Below, piece by piece: positions 9,877-24,215 of a stretch of DNA of 35,997 bases. The notes below the pieces were generated by a model that was not told where the DNA came from, searched no databases, and saw only the letters and a list, made by a program, of their open reading frames with translations. A program made the position numbers and the translations under genes. The stretch comes from Candidatus Aenigmatarchaeota archaeon. GTDB taxonomy: Archaea > Aenigmatarchaeota > Aenigmatarchaeia > CG10238-14 > SCSR01. The stretch spans positions 1-35,997 of the forward strand of contig JAWBNW010000002.1 in assembly GCA_039000685.1 (NCBI GenBank). The letters run 5' to 3'. Position 1 is the first letter of the stretch, and the number at the start of each line of letters is the position of its first letter.

Positions 9877-10443
9877 TTATGGTGTCAGTCGCTTGATCTC
9901 ATAATAAGTGCAATCGTTCTCCCTATCAACAACTGCCCAGACGAAAGTTGCCCTTATGTTGTGAGCAAGCCTTACAGCTCTAGACATTTCGGGTAGAGAA
10001 AAAGCTGATTCTTCTGGAACTGCATGAACCACAAACTTTGTGTGCTCATGAGGGGCTTTCGGGCCTCTCACAAGCTTTACCCCTCTCTCATAAACCCTGA
10101 AATGGGCACCAAACTTAAAACCGGTTTTCACGAGATAGCCTCTTTCCCTCAAATCACGATAAACCACAAACTGTGGGTGGAATTGATTGATGTTTTTTGT
10201 GGCTATCTCTAATAGCTCTTTCAGGTCTATATTCCTCTTTTTACTATCTTCTTTTACGAAAATTTTGATTTTTCCTTTTTCTAAAAGGTAGGCTGCTTCC
10301 ACCAACTCTAACTCAAGCCTTTGAGGATTTTCCTCTGGAACAGGCTTGCCAAAACCAGAATCATCATAAAGTCTAACAGAATCTCTATCCCAAATTATCA
10401 CTCTGTCCTCTATCAACTCTCCTTCCCAAATCTTCTCCATCAT
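9877..10443 (-). CDS. endA: tRNA-splicing endonuclease EndA (single-unit, ~188 aa)
   Basis: VVYRDLRERGYLVKTGFKFGAHFRVYERG...HEHTKFVVHAV, the catalytic Tyr/His/Lys region of archaeal EndA. Its size matches the one-unit (homotetramer-type) enzymes. Confidence 0.9.
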   Translation of the reverse strand: MMEKIWEGELIEDRVIIWDRDSVRLYDDSGFGKPVPEENPQRLELELVEAAYLLEKGKIKIFVKEDSKKRNIDLKELLEIATKNINQFHPQFVVYRDLRERGYLVKTGFKFGAHFRVYERGVKLVRGPKAPHEHTKFVVHAVPEESAFSLPEMSRAVRLAHNIRATFVWAVVDRENDCTYYEIKRLTP

Positions 10444-10485
10444 ACAACTATTTTGTTTTGTTAGTTTTTAAAAACTTTTCTGAGA

Positions 10486-10998
10486 TCAAACCCAAACCTT
10501 TTTTTGACAGCTTTGACAAAGTTCTTTCTTTTTCCTGTCCACATCACCAACTGTATTTGAAAAACTCATCACACAAATTGAAATTGGGCAGTGGTCTAAG
10601 CCAAGCATATGACCGACTTCATGAACTGCTTCTTTTACAGCTCTCTCGACTAAAAGACTTTCATTTGGTTTTTGTTTGTAAAAAGTTTGGTCGAGCCTGT
10701 GAATTGAAATGATTCCGTAATTCCCAGGACAGTAAGCTTGGCCAAAAACAAAATTCAAAGATTCGGCGTAAAGGTCTTTATCTGTAATTCCTAATGTCTT
10801 ACCTTGAAATTTTTCTGAAAGGAATTTGAGTACGAGAGGCGCTGGATATTGTTGCCGAATTGAATTGCAAATTTCTCTTGGAATTTCTATTGGTTTAGTT
10901 GTTTCTGTAGTTAGGCTAAAAGTCTCTCTTAGCTCAGAAGCTATTGCTGTTAACACTTCTTCAGGAATTTTACCAAGCTGAACAACTGTAATCTTCAT
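10486..10998 (-). CDS. amzA: archaemetzincin (peptidase M54)
   Basis: HEVGHMLGLDHC...CVM plus the C-terminal CxxC. Start moved to MKITVVQLG (ATG at 10998) because the longer ORF would overlap tRNA-Phe. Confidence 0.85.
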   Translation of the reverse strand: MKITVVQLGKIPEEVLTAIASELRETFSLTTETTKPIEIPREICNSIRQQYPAPLVLKFLSEKFQGKTLGITDKDLYAESLNFVFGQAYCPGNYGIISIHRLDQTFYKQKPNESLLVERAVKEAVHEVGHMLGLDHCPISICVMSFSNTVGDVDRKKKELCQSCQKKVWV

Positions 10999-11076
10999 AA
11001 AGAATAATTTGAATTCAAAATTAAAAAGATGGGACGGGTGGGATTTGAACCCACAACACATCGCTCTTCAGGCGAT

Positions 11077-11091
11077 CTAGAGCCAAATGGT
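11077..11091 (-). other. tRNA-Phe intron 2 (15 nt, position 26/27), BHB
   Basis: AGAG-[CA|A]-CC-ATTT-GG-CTCT-[AG|A]-TCG: H helix AGAG/CTCT, two 3-nt bulges and a minimal inner stem. Confidence 0.75.
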
Positions 11092-11109
11092 TGCTCTCCC
11101 GGGTTGAGC

Positions 11110-11128
11110 CTACGGTAGCAATTGCTAT
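11110..11128 (-). other. tRNA-Phe intron 1 (19 nt, position 9/10), canonical hBHBh'
   Basis: GGG-ACGG-[TA|A]-TAGC-AATT-GCTA-CCGT-[AG|G]-CTC: a 4-bp H helix (ACGG/CCGT) with a 3-nt bulge 3' of each H strand. Confidence 0.8.
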
Positions 11129-11197
11129 TACCGTCCCTCCCGGGTTTGAATTTTTTAATTAATTGATATTTTAAATTTATATTTTATTGACTTTTTA

Positions 11198-11899
11198 TTA
11201 ATCTATTCCCAACCTATATTTTATTCCTTCTTTTATCACAAAAATCAAAACACCAAAAACCATTCTTATTCCCCTCAAAAAACCAGACCTTTTTCTGTAA
11301 GTTATTGCTACAGGGACTTGTGCTATTTTCAAATTATTTTTTACTGCTGAAATCAACATTTGGTCTTCAAGGATGTAGCCACCATGAATATCATCTTTTA
11401 TTTCTTCCATGGCTTTTCTTGAAAATGCAACAAATCCACAATTTGTGTCTTCCATTCTTTGCTTAAACAAAAGATTGAAACTTGTCCTCCAGACGAAATT
11501 TCCAAATTTATGTCTCAAAGGTACTTTCGACCAATCTCTTTTTCCCATCACAAAATCTGCTTTTTCTTCTTTCAAAGGTTTTATAAATTTTGGCGCATCT
11601 TTTATTTGATATTGTCTATCTGTATCTACAACTATGATAAAATCAACATTTTTTCCTTTCAAATAATTGAATCCTGTCTTAATAGCTTCACCTTTGCCTT
11701 TATTTTTTTCATGTCTCAACACAACAACCCCAGACTTTTTTGCCAATTCGAAAGTCTTGTCTTTAGAACCATCATCAATCACGATTATCAGAGAATTTGG
11801 CAAGAATTTCTTAGCTTCGTTTATCACAATTTTTATATTCTTCTCTTCATTGTAAGCTGGTAAAATTAAAGCTGCCTTATCCATTCGGCTCTTATTCAA
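11198..11899 (-). CDS. family 2 glycosyltransferase (dolichyl-phosphate sugar synthase-like)
   Basis: LILPAYNEEKNI, VIDDGSKDKT and VVDTDRQY motifs in a GT-A fold, with a C-terminal hydrophobic segment. Confidence 0.8.
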   Translation of the reverse strand: MNKSRMDKAALILPAYNEEKNIKIVINEAKKFLPNSLIIVIDDGSKDKTFELAKKSGVVVLRHEKNKGKGEAIKTGFNYLKGKNVDFIIVVDTDRQYQIKDAPKFIKPLKEEKADFVMGKRDWSKVPLRHKFGNFVWRTSFNLLFKQRMEDTNCGFVAFSRKAMEEIKDDIHGGYILEDQMLISAVKNNLKIAQVPVAITYRKRSGFLRGIRMVFGVLIFVIKEGIKYRLGID

Positions 11900-11931
11900 T
11901 TTAAGACTTTATCTTTAAAAAACTGAAGTTG

Positions 11932-13017
11932 TCAATCCAAGAAATCTTTATTCTTTATTTTTTCTGGAAGATATTTATCAGAAATGAATGTTATGCCTTT
12001 GGAAGAAAGTGCTGCCAATTCTGCTTTTGCCTTCATATCTTTCATCATCTTGAACTGTCTCTGCCATTCTTTGCTATTCTTAAACCACTCGTAATTTTTT
12101 ATCTGTTCTAGCCTCTTGAAATCAACTTCCTTAAACTTTATCAAATGTTTTTTCAAATCATAATTTTCTATGTCATCAGCTGTCAATCCTAAGAATTTCG
12201 CTTCTGGAATTGCAAGCCTCTCTGAGATATGGGCTAGAGAAATTGAACCAAACTTAAGAACAGAATAGATATAAAATCCCCATGGGTCGAAATCAGTCAA
12301 AACATAAATTGGTAAATTATGTTCTAAGTGAAGCCTTTGCAAAAGCCTTCTCACCCCCCTTGTTGCTTGACCTTGAGAGCTAACAATGACACATTTCAAC
12401 TTTTCCCAAACCTTATCTTCGTGTAATCTCTCCCACTCAGCGGCTTTCTCCATATAGATCACAAAATTTGCATTCACTTTTTTGAAAACTATATCTTCTA
12501 CATTTGATGGAATGCTCCACCCCCCAGAACCAAGCTTGCTCCAATCAACCAAATCTCCCTTATCTTCAATCACAACTTTGCCTGCAACAGAGCCCATTTT
12601 GTTTGCATTTATGTGGAGCTGCTCTCTCGAAGCATTGGCTATGAGCTCAAGATCTTCTATAGCTTCATTAGATTCTGTTTGTTCATCAACAAGGTTTATG
12701 TTTGAATTTGGCAAAGTCCTTTTCATTCTGTAGAAAGCTTCTCTTAAGCTCAAGTGCTTGTTGATTTCAATCAATTCTTTTGAAAGAGCCGCAGCTTCTA
12801 TGGTTTGAACGAATTTCCTTACATGTGCTATGTTGAAGAAATATCTTTTTGCAACAGCATTTCCCAAAACAAGCATTTTTGTCTTTTCATCAAATTTAAC
12901 ATTGCTCAAAGCTCTTATAGGTACATCTAAGCTCGGATTTCTTTCAGCCTTTACATCTTCTAATATTTTTTTCCCTATTTCTTCAAGATTCTTCTTTACT
13001 TCCTTCTTCTTTTCCAA
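11932..13017 (-). CDS. top6A: DNA topoisomerase VI subunit A (Spo11-like)
   Basis: 361 aa. Contains the Toprim region IVSSQGQATRG and YVLTDFDPWGFYIYSVLKFGS. Sits immediately downstream of top6B with a 35-nt overlap. Confidence 0.9.
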   Translation of the reverse strand: MEKKKEVKKNLEEIGKKILEDVKAERNPSLDVPIRALSNVKFDEKTKMLVLGNAVAKRYFFNIAHVRKFVQTIEAAALSKELIEINKHLSLREAFYRMKRTLPNSNINLVDEQTESNEAIEDLELIANASREQLHINANKMGSVAGKVVIEDKGDLVDWSKLGSGGWSIPSNVEDIVFKKVNANFVIYMEKAAEWERLHEDKVWEKLKCVIVSSQGQATRGVRRLLQRLHLEHNLPIYVLTDFDPWGFYIYSVLKFGSISLAHISERLAIPEAKFLGLTADDIENYDLKKHLIKFKEVDFKRLEQIKNYEWFKNSKEWQRQFKMMKDMKAKAELAALSSKGITFISDKYLPEKIKNKDFLD

Positions 13018-14554: not shown

Positions 14555-15035
14555 ACCTACCCTCCATCAAATCTTTGAAAACAGTTGAGTGTTTTCTTCC
14601 TTGCAATAGACTTTCAACGGCTTGCTTTGCTTTTTGAACTTCATCCCACTTCCCTATTATTGAAATTGTTTTACCATAGATTGTAATTTTAACATTTGTG
14701 TGTTTTTCTATTAATCTTTTTGCTTTTCCTTCTGTTCCTATAACCCTGCCTTTCATTGTAACCATTCTATTTTTTGATTTTCCTGAAAATTCTTGTATGT
14801 TTATCGTCTCCAAACAATATTGTTCATCCAACAAATTTAACGCAATAGCAAAATCAAAACCCCTTCCTAAAGCTTTTATCACTTCCTTTACCCTCATGAG
14901 CAAAAGCGGGTCTTCTGCTTCAATTGAAATTTCCTCGTTTATTCTAATTTTGCAGCTAGCAAGCTTTTCTAATTTGTCTACATAGTTCCTAAAAAATTTC
15001 AATCTTTCTTCAGGAATTTTCACAAAATCTATCAT
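14547..15035 (-). CDS. KH-domain RNA-binding protein (Dim2/Pno1-like)
   Basis: Two KH-like modules: ALGRGFDF and GRVIGTEGKAKRLIEKHTNVKITIYGKTISIIG. 162 aa. Confidence 0.7.
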   Translation of the reverse strand: MIDFVKIPEERLKFFRNYVDKLEKLASCKIRINEEISIEAEDPLLLMRVKEVIKALGRGFDFAIALNLLDEQYCLETINIQEFSGKSKNRMVTMKGRVIGTEGKAKRLIEKHTNVKITIYGKTISIIGKWDEVQKAKQAVESLLQGRKHSTVFKDLMEGRYG

Positions 15036-15040
15036 TTGAA

Positions 15041-15385
15041 CTACTCTATCGAAATTGTTTTCACAAACCCTTTCCTTTTAAGCCAATTGGCTTGAGTTGG
15101 TGTGTACTTGAAAATTATGTCTCCCCTTTCGTTGCTTTGAACTTTCCATGGCTGAACGAGTACCAAATCACCGGCACCAACCCAAACTTTTTTCCTCAGC
15201 CTGCCGGGAATTCTGCAAATTCTTGTGTTGCCATCATCACAAATCACCTTAAGCTTGTCCCCACCAAGCATCATTTCTACTGCACCCAAGACTTCTCCTT
15301 CTCTTGGAATCCTAATTCTGGCTATTTCAAGTTCTTCTTGTGTCGGCTCGTATTTCTTTGGCATATCATCACTATATATATTCAA
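15041..15385 (-). CDS. eif1a: translation initiation factor aIF-1A
   Basis: S1-like OB fold: GEVLGAVEMMLGGDKLKVICDDGNTRICRIPGRLRKKVWVGAGDLVLV. Confidence 0.9.
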   Translation of the reverse strand: MNIYSDDMPKKYEPTQEELEIARIRIPREGEVLGAVEMMLGGDKLKVICDDGNTRICRIPGRLRKKVWVGAGDLVLVQPWKVQSNERGDIIFKYTPTQANWLKRKGFVKTISIE

Positions 15386-16056
15386 TCTGGAATAGAAATT
15401 AGTATCGTGTCTCTATAAATTTTTTTACCTTTTATTCTCCCGGCAATTTTTCTTGTTATTTGGATTTTGGCCTTGTATTTGGCTTTGAGAATTCTGGCTA
15501 TTTGGTTTGCAGAATTTTTAGAGCCAATGGTTACATCAAAACCATTTTTAGTTTCATTAAAATTTGAGATAAAAGCTAAGCTGTCATATTGGTTGAGATA
15601 ATTGATTTGACTTTCAATTTCCTCCTTAATTTCTTCTAAAAGATTTTTTGGTGCTCTCACTTGAAGAATCGCTTGAAAATAACCAGAATCTTTCATAGAA
15701 CAAGCTTGGCAAGTTATTTTCTTTATTCTCAGATTTATTGTTTTTTCTTCTGTTTTTTCCAAATCATTTATCTTGATGTTTAATGTTAGATAAATTTTAT
15801 CATCGCTTATCCTGTAAGAGATGGATGCTAATTCTTCTTCTTTTAAAAAATCTTGAAGAAAAGATTCAATTAGATTTTCTATTGATGAAGAATAATTTTT
15901 AAAGAAAAATCTTCCACAAGATCTGCACTCTTTAATCTCCAAGCTTCTTGGTAGTTTGTCTGAAAAAGAAAATTTTGAAAGAAAACATTCTTCACAAAAT
16001 CCATCATATAGCTTTTCAGTTTTTTTTCCACATTTAGGGCAAAACTTTTCTCTCAT
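15382..16056 (-). CDS. NMD3-family (60S subunit biogenesis/export factor-like) protein, short form
   Basis: N-terminal CPKCG...CEEC...CRSCGR zinc cluster followed by an NMD3-like region. At 224 aa it is shorter than typical archaeal NMD3. Confidence 0.55.
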   Translation of the reverse strand: MREKFCPKCGKKTEKLYDGFCEECFLSKFSFSDKLPRSLEIKECRSCGRFFFKNYSSSIENLIESFLQDFLKEEELASISYRISDDKIYLTLNIKINDLEKTEEKTINLRIKKITCQACSMKDSGYFQAILQVRAPKNLLEEIKEEIESQINYLNQYDSLAFISNFNETKNGFDVTIGSKNSANQIARILKAKYKAKIQITRKIAGRIKGKKIYRDTILISIPD

Positions 16057-16104
16057 AAAAAGAAATTATTTTTAAATTAGTTAAGGTTGAAATAAAATTA
16101 GAAA

Positions 16105-16196
16105 GCCTCGTTAGCTCAACGGTAGAGCATCCGAAGAGCTTAGCTCTGGTGAACCTTGTAAGCGGAGGGTTGTGGGTTCAAATCCCACACGAGGCT
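16105..16196 (+). tRNA. tRNA-Thr (UGU) with an intron at 30/31
   Basis: After removing 20 nt: GCCTCGT TA GCTC AACGGTA GAGC A TCCGC CTTGTAA GCGGA GGGTT GTGGG TTCAAAT CCCAC ACGAGGC T (72 nt). Confidence 0.85.
16134..16153 (+). other. tRNA-Thr intron (20 nt, inside the anticodon stem, 30/31), canonical hBHBh'
   Basis: GAG-CATC-[CG|A]-AGAGC-TTA-GCTCT-GGTG-[AA|C]-CTT: H helix CATC/GGTG (one G.U pair) with 3-nt bulges. Confidence 0.8.
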
Positions 16197-16197
16197 C

Positions 16198-17241
16198 TTA
16201 TTTTTGAAGAAAATCGACATCAAACCAACTAGCAATTTTTGTTAAATTGAAATTCTTGATTAAAGAAAAAGTTATTGGTGAAGAGAAATTGGAAAAAATC
16301 CATTTAAAGATTAAGCCTTTTCTGATTGGCCATATCAGCCTTTCTTTCCATTTTTTATCATAATTTTCAAGCAAAAATTTTTTAGAAAAATCTTTTGCTT
16401 CTAAAGCTTTGATGATTGCTTCGCTTGCAATTTCTGAGCAAATTTTGTTGTAAACTAGACCCCCACCAGAAAAAGGCTTAATTTGACAAGCAGAGTCTCC
16501 AACCAAAAGCACATTATCTACAACTGAACTTTCAATTATTCCATATCTTAGAAAATCTCCAATTTTATTATAGGCCTTGACTCTTCCGAATCTTTCCATC
16601 AAGAATTTTTCCAAGTATTTGTTGGGGTTTTCTTTTGTTAATAGGCCTACTCTTGCAATTCTTTCACTCTCAGGAACAACCCAAGCAAAACCTAAAGGAG
16701 CAATTTTTGAACCAAAATGAAGTTCAACTGTCTTAGCATCAAAGTTTGATTTTACCTTAACTTGTAAAGCAAATAACAAATTTTCCGGTTGTTTTATTTT
16801 AGCTTTCTTGGCAACAGTTGAATTTGGTCCATCTGCCCCAACTAAAATCTTTGTTTGAAATTTTCCTTTGGTTGTAAAGATTGTTTTACCTTTTAAATCT
16901 AGGAATCTTGTTGATGTCTTGATTTCGGCTCCCACTTTCTCAGCATTTTTTGCAAGCCAGCTGTCATATTTTTTTCTGTCTAAAACAAGCATCGGTTCTT
17001 TTGAATTAACTTCAAAAAATTCTTTGCCACAAAAAAATCTTGCCTTCCTAATTTTGTTCAAAGTTATATTTTTTGGAATTTTACCAATTCTCCTGCTAAC
17101 TAAGCCTGTACATTGAACGGGCTCTCCTATTCTTTGGTGTTCCTCCAAAATCAGGACATTAAATCCTTTTTTGGCAACAATTTTGGCTGTTATACAGCCT
17201 GCAGGACCAGCACCAACTACAATACAATCAAAAAGAGTCAT
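16198..17241 (-). CDS. geranylgeranyl reductase family flavoprotein (archaeal lipid saturation)
   Basis: N-terminal DCIVVGAGPAGC FAD motif, LEEH, GADG and LVGDSA motifs. 347 aa. Confidence 0.8.
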   Translation of the reverse strand: MTLFDCIVVGAGPAGCITAKIVAKKGFNVLILEEHQRIGEPVQCTGLVSRRIGKIPKNITLNKIRKARFFCGKEFFEVNSKEPMLVLDRKKYDSWLAKNAEKVGAEIKTSTRFLDLKGKTIFTTKGKFQTKILVGADGPNSTVAKKAKIKQPENLLFALQVKVKSNFDAKTVELHFGSKIAPLGFAWVVPESERIARVGLLTKENPNKYLEKFLMERFGRVKAYNKIGDFLRYGIIESSVVDNVLLVGDSACQIKPFSGGGLVYNKICSEIASEAIIKALEAKDFSKKFLLENYDKKWKERLIWPIRKGLIFKWIFSNFSSPITFSLIKNFNLTKIASWFDVDFLQK

Positions 17242-18562
17242 CCAACAACCTCTGAAGTTTGTTTATTACTTCGGTTTCTGAAAATAGTTTGACTGGAGAA
17301 TTTATACCCTCCACCCAAACTTTAACTGTAGAATAAGGTAATTTGAATCTTTTAGAAATTTCTTTTATAGATTTTCCCTTTTCAAATTCTTTTTTTACCT
17401 CTAAAAATAGAGCATTTCTATATTTACTTCTTTTGATTCTGTTTTTGACGATCCTTAATGTTCTTATAAATTCCTTTTTCCTATCATCTGAAAAATTAGG
17501 AACAAATCTGAAGAACTTGATATAGTTTTCAGCACTACAAGATACGTAGAAGTAAGATTTACTTACCAATTTACCATCTTTGTTCCTTATGTATGATTCT
17601 TTGGACCACTTAACTGCAGTTGATTTTATACCAAATTGGCCAAGCAGCTTTCGGATTTCATTCATAAAATTCTCTTGTTCTTTTTTGAGTTCTAAAACCT
17701 TGCTTAATTGAAAACATAAATAAAAACTTCTTTTTGACCAAATTGGTTTTGTTCCATCTGCAGACCATAAGACACCAAGAAAAATTGACTTTAATTCATC
17801 GGGTAATTTAAAAACCCATTGAGGAATTTTTATAGCCTGAACAATTTTGTCTCCCTTTGGTGCTCCTGCTGCATAAAGAAGCCTTGAAATAGCAGCATTA
17901 TTAATAATAAGATAGTTAGCTCTACCTTTTATAATTCTATCTTGAAATACACCTTCTGTCTCCTTTGTTTTTAATTTACATTTTAATGAAGGTAATTCCA
18001 ATTTTATTTCTTTCATTAATAATTGAAGTGTTTTTCTATCTCCAGCCAATGTAATTTGTGTTAAATTATTGCCCAAATTACCATCTCCAAAAATCCATGC
18101 TAATATTTTCAAAAATAATTTAAACTTTGAATTATTCTTAGAAATTAGAGGAAGTAATCCTAACTTTGTCAGTGTAATTACACACCTAATAGCCCTTGGA
18201 GTAGTTTTAGATGACCAATTACTTACAGTTTGTTTAGGAATTTTTAATTTGATAGCTATATCTTTTAATTTTACTCCTTGCTTCCTCATTTTTTTAGCAG
18301 CAATATAATTGAAAGCTAGCCCCTGTTCTTTCTTATTGTAAGTTCTTATTATATCTTCAAATGTTACTATTGCGTCTTCATTCGTTTCAAAAAAATCTTC
18401 TTCATCTTTCCAGCTTTTACCTTGGAATCTTAAGCCTAGTTTTCTAGCCTTCTTTTGAACGCTATAATAACTTCTATTTAAAATTTTAGAAAGCTTAATT
18501 ACACCAAACTTTTCATAGTTATTTTTCAATAGCGTAATTTCTTCTTCTTTCCATTTCCTCAT
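17228..18562 (-). CDS. free-standing LAGLIDADG endonuclease-like protein with Myb/SANT-like and HTH modules
   Basis: N-terminal WKEEEITLL..., HTH IPKQTVSNWSSKTTP, LAGLIDADG motifs LAWIFGDGNL and FLGVLWSADGTK, and C-terminal HTH IKEISKRFKLPYSTVKVWVEG. Confidence 0.75.
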   Translation of the reverse strand: MRKWKEEEITLLKNNYEKFGVIKLSKILNRSYYSVQKKARKLGLRFQGKSWKDEEDFFETNEDAIVTFEDIIRTYNKKEQGLAFNYIAAKKMRKQGVKLKDIAIKLKIPKQTVSNWSSKTTPRAIRCVITLTKLGLLPLISKNNSKFKLFLKILAWIFGDGNLGNNLTQITLAGDRKTLQLLMKEIKLELPSLKCKLKTKETEGVFQDRIIKGRANYLIINNAAISRLLYAAGAPKGDKIVQAIKIPQWVFKLPDELKSIFLGVLWSADGTKPIWSKRSFYLCFQLSKVLELKKEQENFMNEIRKLLGQFGIKSTAVKWSKESYIRNKDGKLVSKSYFYVSCSAENYIKFFRFVPNFSDDRKKEFIRTLRIVKNRIKRSKYRNALFLEVKKEFEKGKSIKEISKRFKLPYSTVKVWVEGINSPVKLFSETEVINKLQRLLDDSF

Positions 18563-18606
18563 AAATTAATCTTGATGAGTAATGATATTTACTATTTCGG
18601 GACTTC

Positions 18607-18621
18607 ATTTCCGATGTTTCC
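18607..18621 (-). promoter_or_regulatory. GGAAACATCGGAAAT motif upstream of LAGLIDADG gene 17228..18562
   Basis: A direct GGAAA repeat 44 nt upstream of the ATG. A near-identical copy lies upstream of the paralog at 20720..20734. Both are followed by AAATAT and CTCAT. Confidence 0.35.
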
Positions 18622-18636
18622 AAAACCTAAGAGAAC

Positions 18637-19394
18637 TTATCTTCCAAACCTACGTTGCCTTCGATTAAACTCTTTTATACACCAAATTAAATCCCTTTTT
18701 GTAAAATCGGGCCAAAACTTGGGAAGAAATATTAATTCTGCATAAGCTGCTTGCCATAAGAGAAAATTAGAAAGTCTTTTCTCCCCTCCTGTACGAATTA
18801 AACAATCTATGGGAGCTGGAACAAGTAAGTTAGCTTCTATATCTTTTTCTGTTATCTCTATTCTTCCAAGCTTAATTGCCTTTTCTGCGATTTTCTTTAT
18901 TGCTTGCGTTAATTCAAACTTGCTTCCATAAGCAATCATTATGTTTAAAACCCTTTTCTGATATTTTGCAGTTTTTTGCATTATTTTTCCCATAAGTTTA
19001 ACGAGTTTTGGAGGCAATCTTTCCAAATCACCAACAAACCTTACCTTGACTTGATATTTGTCTAAAAAGCTTCCTTCTTTCTTTTCCCATCTTTCGAAGT
19101 ATTCATAAAATAATTTGAAAATTTCTTCCAGCTCTTTTTTTGGTCTATTCAAATTTTCTGTTGATAACACATAGGCTGAGACTTGTGGTATTCCAAGCTC
19201 TAAACACCACTGCAAAAAGTTTTCGAAATTTTTTATGCTTGTGGGCTTGTCGCCCAACAATTTGCACCGTATTTATGGCCTTCCCACGGCTGAAGACCAT
19301 GTAGCTTGGCCCACCTTCTGTCTATGGGATTTAAGCCTTTATAGGCTCAAATCTTTCCATCAAGTATTATTCCTAGATGATTTGGAACATTCAA
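18637..19394 (-). CDS. uppS: cis-prenyltransferase (undecaprenyl/polyprenyl diphosphate synthase), three exons joined by removal of two BHB mini-introns
   Basis: Exons are 19394..19355, 19321..19262 and 19232..18637, totalling 696 nt = 231 aa. The spliced N-terminus is MNVPNHLGIILDGNRRWAKLHGLQPWEGHKYGAKNFENFLQWCLELGI...STENLNRP...RTGGEKRLSNFLLWQAAYAEL...RRFG. TTG start preceded by the GGGGTGAT SD. Unspliced, the gene has a TGA and then a frameshift. Confidence 0.75.
19233..19261 (-). other. uppS intron B (29 nt, frame-shifting), BHB
   Basis: GTGC-[AA|A]-TTGT(T)GGGC-GACAA-GCCCACAA-GCAT-[AA|A]: H helix GTGC/GCAT with 3-nt AAA bulges. The boundary can slide within the A runs without changing the product. 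Confidence 0.7.
19322..19354 (-). other. uppS intron A (33 nt, contains an in-frame TGA), canonical hBHBh'
   Basis: (TTG)-ATGG-[AA|A]-GATTTGAGCCT-ATAA-AGGCTTAAATC-CCAT-[AG|A]-(CAG): H helix ATGG/CCAT and an 11-bp inner hairpin. Confidence 0.75.
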
Positions 19395-19398
19395 CTAT

Positions 19399-19406
19399 AT
19401 CACCCC
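19399..19406 (-). promoter_or_regulatory. Shine-Dalgarno for uppS
   Basis: GGGGTGAT lies 4 nt upstream of the TTG start. AT-rich TATA-like sequence sits further upstream. Confidence 0.4.
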
Positions 19407-19442
19407 ATATTTTAATTTTAAATAATGATTAAAATTTAAAAA

Positions 19443-20675
19443 TTAGCATGTAATTTCCTTAAGAAATGGAAACCTTTGTGTTAATAAATCCCAATCCTTT
19501 GGTAGTAGATTAAGCTTAACTGACTGAATAGCTATGTAAGCAGGTTTTTTAAACCAAGATTTAATAGTAGATCTAGGAAATCCTGTAATAATACTAATCT
19601 GGTTGGAAGTATAATTTTTAACTCGTAATCTTAGAACATTCCAATAATCTTCAGCAGAATATCTGTATTTCTTTTTATTTTTAATTATTTTATCAAGAGC
19701 GTATTCCTTCCTTTTTATAGTAAAACCAATTTCTTTCCTAAAAATTTCAAGATAATTAGAAAAACTAAATCTAATTTTATATAATTTTCTACCTTTCTTT
19801 GCAAGTTCTATTTTTGTAAAAATCCCGAACTTTGATAACAAAAATCTTATATCTTCTAATCCATTCTTGTTAGAAGAAGTTGCCTCGATTGCTCTATTAG
19901 AAATATCAACACTCCCTTCTGAATCAAAAAACCCTTTCAAGAAAGATGAAATTATAAGTTTATCATTATTTTTAATTATTTCTTGGGGAACTCTCCACAC
20001 ATACGAATTAAATTCACCGTACCTCTTTAAATCTTCATAAACCTTTTTTCTTTGTAAATAAACAATATATTGTCGTTTACATTTAGAAAGTCCAGAAGGA
20101 GTTATTCTGATACCGGGTGGTATATTACACTCTTTTGCAATAATACCATAAACATTTTTTATTTTATTTTTAAATTCATCGGCAAACTCTTTATCAGTAA
20201 CTCTTAACCCTAAGAAGTAATTAAAGTATTTATAACCTTTGTATTTTACCAACTTCCGATAGAGCATACCATCCCCACAAAGAACGCCAAGAATATAGGC
20301 TTTTGCTGGAGTTAATGTTTTATAATTTTTGTTTGGAATTTCTAATGGAGTTTTTCTATATCTATTTCTATCCCTAGGAATCTGAAATTTTTTCATTTGT
20401 TTAAAAATATAAGTTGTAGAGCAACCAAAAACTTTTGCTATTTCTTGAAGTGAAAGTCCTTTTTTGTAATAAAGTTCATATAATTTATTTCTCTCGAATT
20501 TTGGTAATCTCAAATCATTCTTTCTTATTTTTAAATTCTTATAGAGTTTCCACTCAATACTATCTTTTGATCTATTTAACCTTCTAGCTATTTCTTCATT
20601 TGATAGACGTTCTTTAGCATATTTTACCAATAAATTGATTTCAGTTTTATTCCATCTTCTTCCCATATCTATCAC
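19443..20675 (-). CDS. free-standing LAGLIDADG endonuclease-like protein with Myb/SANT-like and HTH modules
   Basis: WNKTEINLL..., HTH module LYELYYKKGLSLQEIAKVFGCSTTYIFKQMKKFQIPRDR, LAGLIDADG motifs AYILGVLCGDGML and FLKGFFDSEGSV, and C-terminal HTH ITGFPRSTIKSWFKK. 20675 is a GTG; the ATG at 20666 (MGRRWNK) is the likelier start. Confidence 0.75.
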   Translation of the reverse strand: MIDMGRRWNKTEINLLVKYAKERLSNEEIARRLNRSKDSIEWKLYKNLKIRKNDLRLPKFERNKLYELYYKKGLSLQEIAKVFGCSTTYIFKQMKKFQIPRDRNRYRKTPLEIPNKNYKTLTPAKAYILGVLCGDGMLYRKLVKYKGYKYFNYFLGLRVTDKEFADEFKNKIKNVYGIIAKECNIPPGIRITPSGLSKCKRQYIVYLQRKKVYEDLKRYGEFNSYVWRVPQEIIKNNDKLIISSFLKGFFDSEGSVDISNRAIEATSSNKNGLEDIRFLLSKFGIFTKIELAKKGRKLYKIRFSFSNYLEIFRKEIGFTIKRKEYALDKIIKNKKKYRYSAEDYWNVLRLRVKNYTSNQISIITGFPRSTIKSWFKKPAYIAIQSVKLNLLPKDWDLLTQRFPFLKEITC

Positions 20676-20719
20676 TTTCAGATATGAGCAAACACAATAT
20701 ATTTGTTTTTTTGAAGCAG

Positions 20720-20734
20720 ATTTCCGTTGTTTCC
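20720..20734 (-). promoter_or_regulatory. GGAAACAACGGAAAT motif upstream of LAGLIDADG gene 19443..20666
   Basis: Second copy of the motif at 18607..18621, 53 nt upstream of the ATG. Confidence 0.35.
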
Positions 20735-20787
20735 GATAAATTTTAAAATTATGATTTCCTATACTGAAGTATAAAAAAATTAAATAT

Positions 20788-20890
20788 GGGGTCGTCGTCT
20801 AACCAGGCAGGACAGCAGGCTCCAGTTTCATGGAGCTCGGATAAAAGATGAAGAAACCTGTATGTGGGGGTTCAAATCCCCTCGACCCCA
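20788..20890 (+). tRNA. tRNA-Trp (CCA) with a ~30-nt intron in the anticodon loop region
   Basis: GGGGTCG TC GTCT AACCAGGCA GGAC A GCAGG CTCCAG[intron]A CCTGT ATGT GGGGG TTCAAAT CCCCT CGACCCC A. All allowed intron placements give the anticodon CCA. Confidence 0.8.
20826..20855 (+). other. tRNA-Trp intron (30 nt; boundaries uncertain by up to 2 nt)
   Basis: At the canonical 37/38 placement the H helix would be CTCC/GAAG with a C.A mismatch. The strongest helix is TTCAT/ATGAA (20827-31 / 20848-52). This is a relaxed rather than strict BHB. Confidence 0.5.
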
Positions 20891-20920
20891 CTTGATTTTA
20901 CTTTTTAAATTATCAAAAAA

Positions 20921-21904
20921 ATGTTAGAATTAATTATGTCAATTGATATAATTGGGGGTGGGCCAGCTGGTTCTACCGCTTCAATATTCTTAGCTAAAAG
21001 TGGATTTGATGATATTAAACTATATGAAAAATCTGTTAAAGTCAGAAAACCATGTGGGGGTGGTTTGACTTTTAGGGTTCTTGAAAGGTACGATTATCTT
21101 TTGGAAGGTTTGAAAACAAACCCAATTAAAACAATTGTGGTTGATATTGACAATACTATAATAAAATTTGGGTTCAAAAAAGTGGTATTAAAAATAGTAG
21201 ATCGCTTAAAGCTTGATGAGCACTTAAGAAAAATTGCTAAAAGTCTTGGTGTTAAAATAATTGGAAAAAACGTTGAACCAAAAGAATTGAACGGCAAACT
21301 TGTGATTGATGCCAGGGGATTTGACTCGGAACAAAAATTTTCAATTGCAAAAGTTGCGATTTGTAAGTTAAAAGATTCTATCGCCACTTTCATTTTCAGG
21401 AAAAAATTCATAAGTAAAGGCTATTTTTGGATTTTCCCGATAAATGAAAAACTAGCCAATATAGGTTGTGCTGGAACTAAAAATGGTTTTAAAACTAATT
21501 TAGATGAAGTTTTTGATTGGTTTATTGAAGAAATTGGTGCTAAGCCTTTATCCATCATGAATTATCCTATAACTGTGTATAGTAAGATCAATAGTTTGAT
21601 TTATAGACACGACGATAAAATTGTGGTTAAAGTTGGGGAAAGGGCTGGCCTTGTTAACCCACTGACTGGGGAAGGAATTTATCATGCAATAAGAAGTTCA
21701 GAAATATTGGCTGAATGCATAAAAGACGATGTTTTTTTATATCAGAAAAGGATTGAAGATGAATTTAAAAAAGAACTAACAATTTCTAAATTCTTGGTTG
21801 ATTCTTTCCCTATAATGCCAAATTTCCTAAAAAAATTTTTATTAAAACATGCTGTAAAAATTATATTTCCGTCTACGAAAATTATAGAAATGTGTAGAAA
21901 TTAA
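20921..21904 (+). CDS. geranylgeranyl reductase-family FAD-dependent oxidoreductase (second paralog)
   Basis: IIGGGPAGSTASIFLAKSG dinucleotide-binding motif, DARG, and GERAGLVNPLTGEGI. An alternative start is at 20936. Confidence 0.7.
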   Translation: MLELIMSIDIIGGGPAGSTASIFLAKSGFDDIKLYEKSVKVRKPCGGGLTFRVLERYDYLLEGLKTNPIKTIVVDIDNTIIKFGFKKVVLKIVDRLKLDEHLRKIAKSLGVKIIGKNVEPKELNGKLVIDARGFDSEQKFSIAKVAICKLKDSIATFIFRKKFISKGYFWIFPINEKLANIGCAGTKNGFKTNLDEVFDWFIEEIGAKPLSIMNYPITVYSKINSLIYRHDDKIVVKVGERAGLVNPLTGEGIYHAIRSSEILAECIKDDVFLYQKRIEDEFKKELTISKFLVDSFPIMPNFLKKFLLKHAVKIIFPSTKIIEMCRN

Positions 21905-21905
21905 A

Positions 21906-22577
21906 TTATTTTTCTATCAATTCAACAAAAACAACAGGCCCAAGATTTTTCTTTTTAATTTTTCCATTTTTTGCTTTCTCCAAACAAATCAAATCTTGCT
22001 CATAAGTTGGTCCTAAGGGTGTGACTAAAATTCCTCCAGGTTTAAGCTGATCGATCCAAGCTTTCGGTATTCTTTCTCTTGGAGCTGCACTCGAAACTAT
22101 TTTGTCGTAAGGAGCAAATTCTGGTAAACCTTTTGAACCATCTCCCAGTACAAGCTTAACTTTATTCCAATAACCAGTTTTTTTCAAATTCTTCTTGGCA
22201 AATTCATAAGTCTCAGGGATTATTTCTATACCATAAACTTCTCCCCTTTCTCCAACAATTTCTTTCATATAAGCCAATAAGATTCCAGAGCCAGCACCGA
22301 TTTCAAGAACCTTATCACCTGGCTTGAGTTTTAAGGCAGAAAGGAAGATGGCGTGCATTTCCCCAACCTCTTAGGTGATATGGGGTGCAGATATGGTAAC
22401 ACCACCTGGGATTGGTAATGGCATATCAATGTAAGCATCCTGTTTATTTTCTGGGGGGACAAAATCCTCTCTCTTTACCTTTAACATTACGTTTTCTACA
22501 TTTTTGGATGTTATACAACCTGCTCTCACTAAACTTCCTATAACTTCTTCTCTTTGTTTTTTGAGTTCTTCTCTCAT
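21906..22577 (-). CDS. pcm: protein-L-isoaspartate O-methyltransferase, two exons joined by removal of a 21-nt BHB intron
   Basis: Exon 1 is 22577..22380 (66 codons, ending ...GGVTISAPH). Exon 2 is 22358..21906 (MHAIFLSALKLKPGDKVLEIGAGSG...). The spliced protein is 216 aa and its junction recreates TISAPHMHA. A GGAGGTG SD lies upstream. Confidence 0.8.
22359..22379 (-). other. pcm intron (21 nt, in-frame TAA), BHB
   Basis: TGCA-CCCC-[AT|A]-TC-ACC-TAAGA-GGT-T-GGGG-[AA|A]-TGCA: outer helix TGCA/TGCA, H helix CCCC/GGGG, 3-nt bulges and a weak inner stem. Confidence 0.75.
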
Positions 22578-24081: not shown

Positions 24082-24215
24082 GTTATATATATAACATAAA
24101 TAAAAATAAAGATTCGTATTGTTATACATAGACAGAATTACTACAGATGAAATGATCTCTTTTCTCTGTGTATCCAACTCCACATTTAATATTTGTAAAA
24201 AAATAAATTCATTTT

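What the first reader, a model, noticed from the sequence alone, without database searches (positions are those of the whole stretch)
9877..22577. Seven BHB-type introns in about 12 kb follow one cleavage rule, next to a single-unit EndA
Four tRNA introns (Phe x2, Thr, Trp) and three mRNA introns (uppS x2, pcm) lie between 11077 and 22379. The only splicing-endonuclease gene in the window (9877..10443) encodes a ~188-aa one-unit EndA.

Six of the seven introns show the strict geometry: a 4-bp central helix with a 3-nt bulge on the 3' side of each strand.

Inference: the strict motif fits an endonuclease with canonical BHB specificity acting at any position, including inside ORFs. Every mRNA intron carries a stop codon or a frameshift, so protein output depends on splicing. 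That creates a possible post-transcriptional control point for lipid-carrier synthesis (uppS) and protein repair (pcm).
Basis: inference. Interest (0 to 1): 0.7.

Follow-up and report, generated by a model that had tools for sequence, protein, structure and literature searches.

The report
Mini-introns splitting archaeal tRNA and protein genes
A hot-spring DPANN archaeon (Aenigmatarchaeota) has tiny bulge-helix-bulge introns in three tRNA genes and, very unusually, inside two ordinary protein-coding genes (uppS and pcm), whose proteins can only be made after the tRNA-type splicing enzyme removes them.

Summary
Removing the four tRNA introns gives perfect Phe, Thr and Trp cloverleaves. Removing the three mRNA introns (33, 29 and 21 nt) restores UppS and PCM reading frames that align without gaps to intact homologues.

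Relatives give the decisive evidence. Other Aenigmatarchaeota carry introns at exactly the same three codon positions. Their lengths (13-52 nt) and sequences differ, but the 4-bp helix and two 3-nt bulges are always kept, with compensatory base changes. Most relatives have no intron. Spliced uppS is under strong purifying selection.

Only three or four of the seven are full hBHBh' motifs. The rest are relaxed.

The 188-aa EndA is not canonical. It has an invariant basic insertion at the ARMAN-2/Nanoarchaeum "L3" site, and the catalytic Lys is replaced by Ala.

There is no evidence for regulation. Patchy distribution, insertion in the most conserved motifs and neighbouring LAGLIDADG genes point to mobile-element origins.

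Splicing itself remains inferred: there are no transcript data, and no ligase gene in the window. These are new members of the kind so far known only from crenarchaeal cbf5.

The parts
9877..10443 (-). endA: one-unit splicing endonuclease, 188 aa. It carries an L3-type basic insertion (GVKLVRGPKAP) between the catalytic Tyr and His, and Ala in place of the canonical catalytic Lys.
   Evidence: Pfam PF02778 plus PF01974. PDB alignments to M. jannaschii, ARMAN-2, M. kandleri and A. pernix EndA. Family alignment A3.
11030..11137 (-). tRNA-Phe(GAA) gene with two introns. Exons: 11129-11137, 11092-11109, 11030-11076.
   Evidence: Rfam tRNA partial hit. Perfect cloverleaf after removing both introns.
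11110..11128 (-). tRNA-Phe intron A: 19 nt, position 9/10. Full hBHBh' (H ACGG/CCGU, h GGG/CUC, h' UAGC/GCUA).
   Evidence: Rank 5 of 1431 descriptor hits by energy.
11077..11091 (-). tRNA-Phe intron B: 15 nt, position 26/27. H AGAG/CUCU, with flanking helices of only 2 bp each.
   Evidence: (rank 53).
16105..16197 (+). tRNA-Thr(UGU) gene.
   Evidence: ARAGORN and Rfam. Cloverleaf after splicing.
16134..16153 (+). tRNA-Thr intron: 20 nt, position 30/31. Full hBHBh' (H CAUC/GGUG, h' AGAGC/GCUCU). It is conserved in relatives, with changed h' sequence or loop.
   Evidence: rank 6.
20788..20891 (+). tRNA-Trp(CCA) gene.
   Evidence: Rfam, and ARAGORN -i.
20826..20855 (+). tRNA-Trp intron: 30 nt, canonical position 37/38, relaxed motif. 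H is CUCC/GAAG with a C34.A mismatch. A conserved competing hairpin GCUCC/GGAGC is present.
18637..19394 (-). uppS (cis-prenyltransferase) in three exons: 19355-19394, 19262-19321, 18637-19232. TTG start, with GGGGTGAT upstream. The spliced product is 231 aa.
   Evidence: Pfam Prenyltransf covers only profile positions 24-219 in the 207-aa ORF. The spliced protein aligns gap-free to intact homologues.
19322..19354 (-). uppS intron 1: 33 nt, inside codon Asn14 of the DGNRRW motif, contains TGA. H AUGG/CCAU, bulges aaa/aga, h' 10-11 bp, h 3 bp.
   Evidence: Rank 1 of 1431. Same site occupied in L018, L022, L026, L027, L028, L052 and L057 with covariation.
19233..19261 (-). uppS intron 2: 29 nt, after GHKYGA, causes a frameshift. 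H GUGC/GCAU, bulges aaa/aaa, h' UUGU/ACAA plus a distal stem. There is no outer helix.
   Evidence: Homologous intron in L016, L026 and L056 with compensatory changes.
21906..22577 (-). pcm (protein-L-isoaspartate O-methyltransferase) in two exons: 22380-22577 and 21906-22358. The spliced product is 216 aa.
   Evidence: Pfam PCMT covers only profile positions 61-207 in the 150-aa ORF. Gap-free alignment after splicing.
22359..22379 (-). pcm intron: 21 nt, inside the SAPH|MHA motif, contains TAA. H CCCC/GGGG, h UGCA/UGCA, bulges aua/aaa, inner helix imperfect.
   Evidence: Introns of 13-15 nt at the same site in L009/L044, L039, L048 and L056, including CCUC/GAGG covariation.
19443..20675 (-). 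Free-standing LAGLIDADG plus HTH ORF (410 aa), ending about 50 nt upstream of uppS. It co-occurs with uppS intron 2 in relatives.
   Evidence: Pfam LAGLIDADG_3 at 6.7e-15. Distribution.
17228..18562 (-). Free-standing LAGLIDADG plus HTH ORF (444 aa), starting about 75 nt downstream of uppS.
   Evidence: Pfam. Homologue in L054 sits next to an intronless uppS.
22444..23856 (-). 470-aa ORF of unknown family immediately upstream of pcm, overlapping its start. It is absent from the near-identical strain L004, whose pcm has no intron.
   Evidence: No Pfam hit. Only weak similarity to the LAGLIDADG ORFs. Mosaic comparison.

Best explanation
The region holds seven archaeal bulge-helix-bulge (BHB) introns: four in tRNA genes and three inside the coding sequences of uppS and pcm.

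Proposed mechanism. In each precursor RNA, exon and intron bases pair to form a 4-bp helix. Each strand of that helix is followed on its 3' side by three unpaired nucleotides. The splicing endonuclease (the EndA family encoded at 9877-10443) cuts after the second unpaired nucleotide on both strands. An RtcB-type ligase, not encoded in the window, then joins the exons.

For uppS and pcm this step is obligatory. The unspliced mRNAs contain a stop codon or a frameshift inside catalytic motifs.

The introns are most likely selfish insertions that are neutral once spliced. They have been gained and lost patchily within Aenigmatarchaeota rather than serving as dedicated regulators.

Shown here: the positions, the geometry, exact restoration of tRNA and protein sequences, evolutionary conservation of the pairing, and purifying selection on the spliced frames.

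Inferred: actual cleavage and ligation in vivo, and that this EndA is the enzyme responsible.
For: 1. Excision at the BHB-predicted sites gives perfect tRNA-Phe, Thr and Trp cloverleaves. It also gives UppS and PCM that align without any gap at the junctions to intact 214-236-aa homologues.

2. The same three codon positions carry introns in other Aenigmatarchaeota assemblies.
- uppS intron 1 occurs in 7 further loci, at 16-26 nt.
- uppS intron 2 occurs in 3 further loci, at 29-52 nt.
- The pcm intron occurs in 4 further distinct loci, at 13-15 nt.
- In every case the 4-bp helix and the 3-nt segments are in the same register.

3. Compensatory changes are present.
- uppS intron 1 central helix: AUGG/CCAU versus ACGG/CCGU.
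- uppS intron 1 inner helix: GACU/AGUC, GAUC/GGUC, AGCCU/AGGCU, GAUCU/AGAUC.
- In a 7-sequence alignment of intron 1, 90.9% of cells are paired and 5 pairs change on both sides. 0 of 500 shuffles reach this, and slid controls give 23-43% paired.
- pcm central helix: CCCC/GGGG versus CCUC/GAGG.

4. Most relatives (23 or more uppS loci and most pcm loci) have no intron, and their sequence is exactly what splicing predicts.

5. dN/dS is 0.03-0.19 between intron-bearing uppS alleles, calculated on the spliced frame.

6. The chance of core BHB plus a flank helix at a fixed junction is 0.0023.

7. An EndA gene is present and extremely conserved in the lineage, at 72-94% identity.
Against: - No transcript, circular-intron or protein data exist for this organism, so splicing is inferred only.
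- No RNA ligase gene lies in the window.
- The EndA lacks the canonical catalytic Lys (AHNIRA instead of AHSVRK). Its activity, or the need for a partner subunit, is therefore uncertain.
- Three of the seven motifs lack one flanking helix, and the Trp intron has a mismatch in the central helix plus a more stable competing hairpin. Such substrates are cleaved in vitro only by broad-specificity enzymes (PMC5829648).
- Transcription and translation are coupled in archaea (general knowledge), so it is unclear how the mRNA BHB forms before ribosomes arrive.
Confidence: 0.88

Rival explanations
1. The mRNA mini-introns are partners of the neighbouring free-standing LAGLIDADG homing-endonuclease genes ('collaborative homing'). 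The endonuclease would cut intronless uppS or pcm alleles at the intron insertion site. The BHB intron would interrupt that site and protect the carrier. Repair would then copy the endonuclease gene and the intron together. This adds an origin and spread mechanism to the best explanation; it does not replace splicing.
For: - The 410-aa LAGLIDADG ORF upstream of uppS occurs in the window, L004, L056 and L026, and all four have uppS intron 2. Only L016 has intron 2 without it. 23 other uppS loci with enough upstream flank have neither (Fisher p=2.4e-4).
- The endonuclease is 67% identical between the window and L026, while UppS is only 55% identical. This suggests horizontal movement.
- L004 is 96% identical to the window over 15614-20892 but lacks both the pcm intron and the 470-aa ORF next to pcm.
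- All three introns sit in the most conserved motifs (DGNRRW, GHxxGA, SAPHMHA), as is typical of homing sites (PMC2814812).
- Precedent: phage psbA intron with F-CphI (PMC6083498) and T4 mobE (PMC2790892).
Against: - uppS intron 1 occurs in six lineages with no endonuclease gene nearby.
- The 444-aa-type endonuclease gene lies next to an intronless uppS in L054.
- pcm introns in L009, L039, L044 and L048 have no such neighbour.
- The 470-aa ORF has no recognisable LAGLIDADG domain.
- The association is not corrected for phylogeny: the window, L004, L016 and L056 are close relatives.
- No target-site data exist.
Confidence: 0.25
2. The interruptions are inactivating mutations or assembly errors. 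On this reading uppS and pcm are pseudogenes in this genome.
For: - Gene callers split or truncate both genes: a 207-aa uppS fragment, and 68-aa and 150-aa pcm fragments.
- No transcript evidence is available.
Against: - The same interruptions are found in independent assemblies from different samples (L004, L016, L026, L056, L009, L039, L044, L048).
- Every interruption folds into the BHB register and shows compensatory changes.
- dN/dS of the spliced frame is 0.03-0.19.
- Excision is exact to the nucleotide.
Confidence: 0.03
3. The inserts are skipped by the ribosome, through programmed bypassing or frameshifting as in T4 gene 60, rather than removed from the RNA.
For: - The inserts are short, contain a hairpin, and begin shortly before a stop codon in uppS intron 1 and pcm.
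Against: - There are no matching take-off and landing codons.
- At one site, insert lengths range from 13 to 52 nt in all three phases.
- The conserved feature is the two-bulge geometry shared with the tRNA introns of the same genome, which ribosomes never see.
Confidence: 0.02
4. The mRNA introns are a regulatory device. Splicing efficiency would set UppS and PCM output in response to conditions.
For: - Protein output depends strictly on splicing.
- uppS intron 1 is old and widespread in the phylum.
- In Haloferax, removal of a 5'UTR BHB intron affects expression of HVO_1309 (PMC7714728).
Against: - Closely related genomes lack the introns altogether (L003 has neither uppS nor pcm introns; L004 lacks the pcm intron), in genes that are otherwise 81-100% identical. 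A conserved regulatory need is therefore unlikely.
- Intron interiors are not conserved beyond pairing.
- No sensor element is apparent.
Confidence: 0.1

Closest known systems
cbf5 pre-mRNA BHB intron of Crenarchaeota (Watanabe 2002; Yokobori 2009, PMC2738675)
   Same: It is a BHB intron inside a protein-coding sequence. It is presumed to be cut by the tRNA splicing endonuclease. Its gain and loss among related lineages is patchy, and its removal is needed for the full-length protein.
   Different: - The host genes differ (uppS, pcm) and so does the superphylum (DPANN Aenigmatarchaeota).
- There are three introns within 3.2 kb, two of them in one gene.
- The sizes are 13-52 nt.
- cbf5 introns were linked to hetero-oligomeric (alpha-beta)2 EndA. 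Here only a one-unit EndA with an L3-type insertion is seen.
- As of 2020 cbf5 was described as the only coding-region example (PMC7714728).
HVO_1309 5'UTR BHB intron in Haloferax volcanii (PMC7714728)
   Same: It is an mRNA substrate of the archaeal splicing endonuclease with a BHB motif.
   Different: It lies in the untranslated leader and does not interrupt a reading frame. It occurs in a euryarchaeon with an alpha'2 enzyme.
Non-canonical and multiple tRNA introns of Thermoproteales, ARMAN and other DPANN (Marck & Grosjean 2003; Fujishima 2011, PMC3239211; Kaneta 2018, PMC5829648)
   Same: These introns sit at positions such as the D-arm and anticodon stem. Some tRNAs carry two introns. The motifs are relaxed (HBh', hBH, BHL). 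They are associated with EndA proteins that carry extra loops.
   Different: Nothing essential differs for the four tRNA introns, which are ordinary members of this kind. What is new is that the same rule is applied to mRNAs in the same genome.
Archaeal EndA families: alpha4 (M. jannaschii, 1a79), epsilon2 (ARMAN-2, 4fz2), (alpha-beta)2 alpha subunits (N. equitans 3iey, A. pernix 3p1z)
   Same: - Same two-domain fold by sequence. The best full-length match is M. jannaschii alpha4 (E=5e-29).
- The catalytic Tyr and His are present.
- There is an acidic L10-like loop.
- An insertion lies at the same place as in the ARMAN-2 alpha unit.
   Different: - The canonical catalytic Lys (M. jannaschii K156, motif HSVRK) is Ala (HNIRA) in the whole Aenigmatarchaeota family.
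- In a wider clade, this loss goes together with the basic insertion GV(K/N)..GPK.
- Oligomeric state and substrate range are untested.
Collaborative homing of an intron with a free-standing homing endonuclease (cyanophage psbA with F-CphI, PMC6083498; T4 mobE, PMC2790892)
   Same: An endonuclease gene lies next to, not inside, an intron-containing conserved gene. The two elements are distributed together (uppS intron 2).
   Different: - Those introns are self-splicing group I introns in phages. Here they are protein-spliced BHB mini-introns in an archaeal chromosome.
- The endonuclease is of the LAGLIDADG+HTH type.
- Cleavage specificity is unknown, and the association fails for the other two mRNA introns.
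IRE1/RtcB splicing of HAC1/XBP1 mRNA in eukaryotes
   Same: It is spliceosome-independent removal of a short mRNA intron by an endonuclease that recognises RNA stem-loops, followed in metazoans by RtcB ligation. Splicing changes the reading frame.
   Different: The nuclease (IRE1) is unrelated and the reaction is stress-regulated. No homology with the present system is implied.

Membership tests
Archaeal BHB introns | 4-bp central helix with a 3-nt bulge 3' of each strand, and cleavage after the 2nd bulge nucleotide | tested here: met
   Six of the seven window introns and all 14 further intron instances in relatives fit this register. Trp fits only with a C.A mismatch.
Archaeal BHB introns | Flanking helices h and h' closing both bulges (strict hBHBh') | tested here: inconclusive
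   Met for Phe-A, Thr and uppS-1, and marginally (2 bp) for Phe-B. Not met for uppS-2 (h=0 in all 5 loci), pcm (h' 0-2 bp) or Trp. The latter are relaxed HBh', hBH or BHL forms.
Archaeal BHB introns | Excision at the predicted sites restores a functional product | tested here: met
   tRNA cloverleaves. Gap-free UppS and PCM alignments. dN/dS 0.03-0.19.
Archaeal BHB introns | Pairing maintained in evolution (covariation) | tested here: met
   uppS intron 1: 5 pairs with changes on both sides, 0 of 500 shuffles. uppS intron 2 and pcm: compensatory changes. Thr h' variants.
Archaeal BHB introns | Cleavage by EndA and ligation by RtcB, with a circular intron released | not testable with these tools
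   No RNA data are available. No ligase gene is in the window.
alpha4 (homotetrameric) EndA | Single polypeptide of about 170-190 aa with an N-terminal and a catalytic C-terminal domain | tested here: met
   188 aa, PF02778 plus PF01974. Full-length alignment to M. jannaschii EndA 1a79.
alpha4 (homotetrameric) EndA | Catalytic triad Tyr-His-Lys (M. jannaschii Y115, H125, K156) | tested here: not met
   Tyr118 and His134 are present. The Lys position is Ala (AHNIRA versus AHSVRK) and this is invariant in 12 family members.
alpha4 (homotetrameric) EndA | Acidic L10 loop, and no second EndA subunit gene in the genome | not testable with these tools
   An acidic VDRENDC segment aligns with M. jannaschii VDADGD. 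The rest of the genome could not be searched, and the oligomeric state is unknown.
L3-insertion EndA of DPANN (Kaneta 2018) | Lys-containing insertion in the C-terminal domain at the site of the N. equitans and ARMAN-2 insertion | tested here: met
   The query has 6-8 extra residues (VKLVRGPK) relative to M. jannaschii, M. kandleri and A. pernix EndA. It aligns almost gap-free with the ARMAN-2 insertion. The definition of L3 is taken from PMC5829648 and PMC3239211.
cbf5-type archaeal pre-mRNA intron | Located in cbf5 of Crenarchaeota and linked to hetero-oligomeric EndA | tested here: not met
   The host genes are uppS and pcm, and the lineage is Aenigmatarchaeota. The mechanism is the same kind, but the family is different.
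Collaborative homing (free-standing endonuclease plus intron) | Endonuclease gene adjacent to the intron-bearing gene and co-distributed with the intron | tested here: inconclusive
   Holds for uppS intron 2: 4 of 4 endonuclease-bearing loci have it, and 1 of 24 loci without the endonuclease do (p=2.4e-4). It fails for uppS intron 1 and for pcm in relatives.
Collaborative homing (free-standing endonuclease plus intron) | Endonuclease cuts the intronless allele at the intron insertion site | not testable with these tools
   This needs biochemistry.
tRNA-Trp intron with box C/D guide (Clouet d'Orval 2001; own knowledge) | C/D or C'/D' boxes with a guide that places C34 five nucleotides upstream of box D' | tested here: inconclusive
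   Relatives have GGAGCU-CUGA...AUGA, with GGAG pairing to C32-C35, so C34 falls at the 5th position. The window has CGGA instead of CUGA. The intron is only 27-35 nt, and no full C box is seen.

The most novel reading that the evidence does not exclude
Protein-spliced BHB mini-introns in archaeal coding genes behave as mobile elements that spread together with free-standing LAGLIDADG homing-endonuclease genes. This would be collaborative homing in Archaea. It would be tolerated because this DPANN lineage has a remodelled, broad-specificity EndA: the catalytic Lys is lost from its canonical position and an invariant basic insertion lies beside the active site. If so, Aenigmatarchaeota would show an active route by which tRNA-type introns colonise mRNAs.
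Probability: 0.2. Interest if true: 0.85.

Novelty: new member of a known kind. Interest (0 to 1): 0.72.

Why it matters
For more than twenty years the only documented BHB intron inside an archaeal coding sequence has been the one in crenarchaeal cbf5. The only other mRNA case is a 5'UTR intron in Haloferax (PMC7714728, PMC2738675).

This study adds three more coding-sequence introns, in two housekeeping genes of a DPANN archaeon. Each recurs at the same codon in several related lineages, with covariation, so they form intron families and are not one-off oddities.

This has four consequences.
- Gene callers systematically truncate or split such genes, which biases metabolic reconstructions of DPANN genomes. 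uppS, for example, would be scored as N-terminally damaged.
- mRNA splicing by the tRNA machinery is not tied to hetero-oligomeric EndA.
- The lineage offers natural presence/absence alleles. These can be used to study how BHB introns are gained and lost, and how splicing coexists with coupled transcription and translation.
- The unusual EndA active site and the neighbouring homing-endonuclease genes give two directly testable biochemical questions.

Tried and rejected
1. Raw BHB descriptor scan of the window against 20 dinucleotide shuffles. Totals were 1431 hits against 1369-1575. Hits at or below -5.5 kcal/mol numbered 6 against 0-6. The scan does not discriminate, so it is rejected as a test. 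Only uppS-1 (-15.2 kcal/mol) lies outside the shuffle range.

2. Large BHB introns enclosing the LAGLIDADG ORFs, as in crenarchaeal rRNA introns. Only weak AT-rich chance-level hits were found.

3. Retrieving the source genome to look for RtcB or a second EndA. The EndA protein was found only on 1.2-2 kb Logan contigs.

4. Searching IMG/VR for the 410-aa endonuclease. No relative was found.

5. A simple one-endonuclease-one-intron correlation. It is rejected for uppS intron 1 and for pcm.

6. The 470-aa ORF as a LAGLIDADG protein. It has no Pfam hit and only E~0.04-0.25 local similarities.

7. The P0107/L054 'truncated' uppS as an intron case. It is an intact gene with a TTG start.

8. Pseudogene, assembly-error and ribosomal-bypass readings were rejected (see rival explanations).

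9. Literature searches for DPANN or Aenigmatarchaeota mRNA BHB introns found no report. The library does not cover most subscription journals.

Full report
**What the window is**

The 36-kb window comes from a low-GC (about 33%) archaeon. It carries an archaeal SRP RNA. Reading the ORF translations by eye (these three ORFs were not scanned against Pfam), 24216-28067 looks like a RuBisCO form III, AMP phosphorylase and ribose-1,5-bisphosphate isomerase cluster. The closest relatives of its proteins are metagenome-assembled genomes labelled Candidatus Aenigmatarchaeota, a DPANN phylum. Many carry isolate names beginning JZ- or DRTY-.

**Checking the observation: tRNA introns**

Default tRNA finders see only tRNA-Val, plus a mis-typed 'Leu' at 16105-16197 that is really tRNA-Thr(UGU). 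Intron-aware and Rfam searches add tRNA-Trp and a partial hit at 11030-11100. I parsed the three interrupted tRNA genes by hand and verified them by removing the proposed introns.

- tRNA-Phe(GAA), 11030-11137(-), has a 19-nt intron at position 9/10 (11110-11128) and a 15-nt intron at position 26/27 (11077-11091).
- tRNA-Thr(UGU), 16105-16197(+), has a 20-nt intron at position 30/31 (16134-16153).
- tRNA-Trp(CCA), 20788-20891(+), has a 30-nt intron at the canonical position 37/38 (20826-20855).

After excision, ARAGORN returns perfect 73-74-nt cloverleaves for all three.

**Checking the observation: mRNA introns**

On the minus strand, the UPP-synthase reading frame is broken twice.

- The motif DG|NRRWA is split by 33 nt containing an in-frame TGA (19322-19354).
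- GHKYGA|KNFENF is split by 29 nt, which shifts the frame (19233-19261).

The PCM frame SAPH|MHAIF is split by 21 nt containing TAA (22359-22379).

Pfam matches the large ORFs only from profile position 24 (Prenyltransf) and 61 (PCMT) onward, so the N-terminal parts lie in upstream exons.

**Geometry**

Six of the seven introns can be drawn with a 4-bp helix H whose two strands are each followed by three unpaired nucleotides. The splice sites fall after the second of these nucleotides.

| Intron | Central helix H |
|---|---|
| Phe-A | ACGG/CCGU |
| Phe-B | AGAG/CUCU |
| Thr | CAUC/GGUG |
| uppS-1 | AUGG/CCAU |
| uppS-2 | GUGC/GCAU |
| pcm | CCCC/GGGG |

Trp needs a C34.A mismatch (CUCC/GAAG). 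It also has a more stable, conserved competing hairpin, GCUCC/GGAGC.

The word 'strict' is too generous. With contiguous flanking helices required, only uppS-1, Phe-A and Thr pass, at ranks 1, 5 and 6 of 1431 hits by energy. Phe-B passes barely, at rank 53. uppS-2 has no outer helix and pcm has no proper inner helix.

**Is it more than chance?**

It has no power in this AT-rich DNA.

- The window gives 1431 hits. Twenty dinucleotide shuffles give 1369-1575.
- Hits at or below -5.5 kcal/mol number 6 in the window and 0-6 in shuffles.

Junction specificity is what discriminates. At a fixed site and length, core BHB plus one flank helix of >=3 bp occurs with probability 0.0023. Yet all three homology-defined mRNA junctions have it, each with at most 2-3 equivalent registers.

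**Comparative evidence: intact homologues**

This is the decisive part. Spliced UppS (231 aa) and spliced PCM (216 aa) align with no gap at any junction. The intact Aenigmatarchaeota homologues are 230-236 aa for UppS and 214-224 aa for PCM, at 65-82% identity.

**Comparative evidence: the same positions in other assemblies**

One genome scan, one metagenome scan and contig look-ups recovered 30-odd uppS loci and about 25 pcm loci. Most have no intron. The same three positions are occupied in other assemblies.

| Intron | Further loci carrying it | Length (nt) |
|---|---|---|
| uppS intron 1 | L018, L022, L026, L027, L028, L052/53, L057 | 16-26 |
| uppS intron 2 | L016, L026, L056 | 29-52 |
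| pcm intron | L009/L044, L039, L048, L056 | 13-15 |

L004 is a near-identical strain of the window and has both uppS introns. In every case the helix and the two 3-nt segments keep the same register, and splicing restores DGNRRW, GA-K and SAPHMHA.

**Comparative evidence: compensatory changes and selection**

- In intron 1 the central helix changes from AUGG/CCAU to ACGG/CCGU.
- The inner helix of intron 1 is different in almost every lineage yet always paired: GACU/AGUC, GAUC/GGUC, AGCCU/AGGCU, GAUCU/AGAUC, or 10-11 bp in the window.
- On a 7-sequence alignment of the paired segments, 90.9% of cells pair and 5 of 11 pairs change on both sides. No shuffle in 500 reaches this, and slid controls pair 23-43%.
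- Intron 2 keeps UUGU/ACAA (UUGC/GCAA in L026), a 1-nt bulge and a variable distal stem.
- The pcm helix covaries CCCC/GGGG, CCUC/GGGG and CCUC/GAGG.
- dN/dS between intron-bearing uppS alleles on the spliced frame is 0.03-0.19.

These are functional genes that depend on intron removal. They are not pseudogenes or assembly errors.

**The endonuclease**

ORF 9877-10443(-) is a one-unit EndA. No other EndA and no RtcB appear among the window ORFs scanned. Its best full-length structural relative is the M. jannaschii alpha4 enzyme. Two features argue against calling it canonical.

First, it has 6-8 extra residues (GVKLVRGPKAP) between the catalytic Tyr and His. This is the position of the insertion in the ARMAN-2 alpha unit. 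Kaneta et al. call this insertion L3 and associate it, in DPANN alpha4-type enzymes, with increased tRNA gene disruption.

Second, the canonical catalytic Lys (M. jannaschii K156 in AHSVRK) is Ala: the motif is AHNIRA. Both features are invariant across Aenigmatarchaeota EndAs of 72-94% identity.

In a library-wide search, other EndAs with the GV(K/N)..GPK insertion also have (H/Q)NIR(A/S). One insertion-bearing relative (P0413) keeps the Lys. Most relatives without the insertion keep HSV(R/K)K; P0428 and P0474 have SVKT/GVKT. I infer that a basic residue of the insertion, or the adjacent Arg, may take over the Lys role. A partner subunit encoded elsewhere is the alternative. Neither possibility could be tested here.

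**Mechanism and function**

The best-supported reading is ordinary archaeal BHB splicing applied to mRNAs as well as tRNAs: EndA cleavage followed by RtcB-type ligation.

I found no support for a regulatory role.

- Closely related genomes lack the introns. L003 has none of the three mRNA introns. L004 lacks the pcm intron although it is 96% identical to the window over 15614-20892.
- Intron interiors are conserved only in pairing.
- All three introns sit in the most conserved catalytic motifs, which is typical of selfish insertions.

**Homing-endonuclease neighbours**

The window has four large free-standing ORFs, three with LAGLIDADG plus HTH domains: 5211-6758, 17228-18562 and 19443-20675. 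The fourth, 22444-23856, is unclassified. There is also a LAGLIDADG-containing intein in ORF 2856-5225. Relatives such as L003 and L039 lack these ORFs at the same loci.

The 410-aa ORF just upstream of uppS is present in the window, L004, L056 and L026, and all four carry intron 2. One locus (L016) has intron 2 without the ORF. Twenty-three other loci have neither (Fisher p=2.4e-4, not phylogeny-corrected). The endonuclease is more similar between the window and L026 (67%) than UppS is (55%).

This resembles collaborative homing, as described for phage group I introns (PMC6083498, PMC2790892). However, intron 1 and the pcm introns of relatives do not track any endonuclease gene. The ORFs are not enclosed by large BHB motifs either. 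I therefore rate this add-on hypothesis at about 0.2-0.25.

**Comparison with what is known**

The four tRNA introns are ordinary members of the non-canonical tRNA intron class. For coding sequences, the literature I could search knows only cbf5 of Crenarchaeota, plus a 5'UTR intron in Haloferax (PMC7714728, PMC2738675, PMC5829648). I found no report of BHB introns in DPANN protein genes.

The uppS and pcm introns are therefore new members of a known kind. The notable extras are multiple intron families, sizes down to 13 nt, and a lineage with a one-unit, non-canonical EndA.

**Limits**

- There are no RNA data.
- The ligase gene, and any second EndA gene, could not be searched for genome-wide.
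- EndA activity is inferred from sequence alone.
- The endonuclease association rests on few, partly related genomes.
- The paper library omits most subscription journals.

Noticed in passing
window 9877-10443 (-); alignment A3: The EndA family of Aenigmatarchaeota lacks the canonical catalytic Lys: it has AHNIRA where other EndAs have AHSVRK. It also carries an invariant basic insertion, GVKLxRGPKA, between the catalytic Tyr and His. In a wider set of EndAs, loss of the Lys goes together with this insertion.
   Followed up: partly
window 5211-6758, 17228-18562, 19443-20675, 22444-23856 (all -): Four large free-standing ORFs lie in intergenic positions that are empty in related genomes. Three have LAGLIDADG plus HTH domains and one is unclassified. 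The 410-aa ORF co-occurs with uppS intron 2 in 4 of 4 loci.
   Followed up: partly
window 2856-5225 (+): A 789-aa ORF contains an intein with a LAGLIDADG domain (Pfam LAGLIDADG_3, and Intein_splicing below its cut-off). The host protein looks PHP-like by eye and was not identified.
   Followed up: no
window 20826-20855 (+) and tRNA-Trp genes in L003-L009, L016, L041-L047: The tRNA-Trp intron has a conserved design: CUCCAG, a variable loop, GGAGCU, CUGA, 5-9 nt, AUGAAG, AAA. GGAG pairs with anticodon-loop C32-C35. This places C34 five nucleotides upstream of a box-D'-like CUGA, reminiscent of the intron-guided Cm34 of euryarchaeal tRNA-Trp. The window, L003 and L004 have CGGA instead of CUGA.
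   Followed up: partly
window 11137-11144 and 11096-11103 (-): An 8-nt direct repeat, CCCGGGAG (palindromic core CCCGGG), spans the tRNA-Phe 5' leader and first acceptor base, and also lies in its D-loop. By eye it could extend the outer helix of the 9/10 intron's BHB. The minimum-free-energy fold does not use this pairing.
   Followed up: partly
window 20893-21906 and 22488-24150, compared with L004: The genome is a mosaic. L004 is 96% identical to the window over 15614-20892. It lacks the GGR-like ORF 20921-21904 and the 470-aa and 108-aa ORFs. Its pcm is only 81% identical and has no intron. This points to recent recombination or replacement around pcm.
   Followed up: partly
window 22444-22577 (-): The 470-aa ORF overlaps the first 134 nt of pcm exon 1 in another frame. 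Its true 3' end is uncertain.
   Followed up: no
window 2327-2374 (+): A BHB-like candidate of 48 nt, in frame (-7.1 kcal/mol, h' 8 bp), lies within the N-terminal part of the M50-peptidase ORF. Its energy is within the range seen in shuffles. It was not checked against homologues.
   Followed up: no
window 24216-28067 (+): By eye from the ORF translations, this is a cluster of ribose-1,5-bisphosphate isomerase-like, RuBisCO form III and AMP phosphorylase genes, i.e. the archaeal AMP salvage pathway typical of DPANN genomes. These ORFs were not scanned against Pfam; relatives have a PF01008 (IF-2B) gene at the corresponding position.
   Followed up: no
L039, L048, L009/L044, L056 (pcm loci): pcm introns of only 13-15 nt consist of the 4-bp helix closed by a 9-11-nt loop that contains the 5' splice site (bulge-helix-loop form). 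These are among the shortest introns one could expect to be spliced inside a coding sequence.
   Followed up: partly
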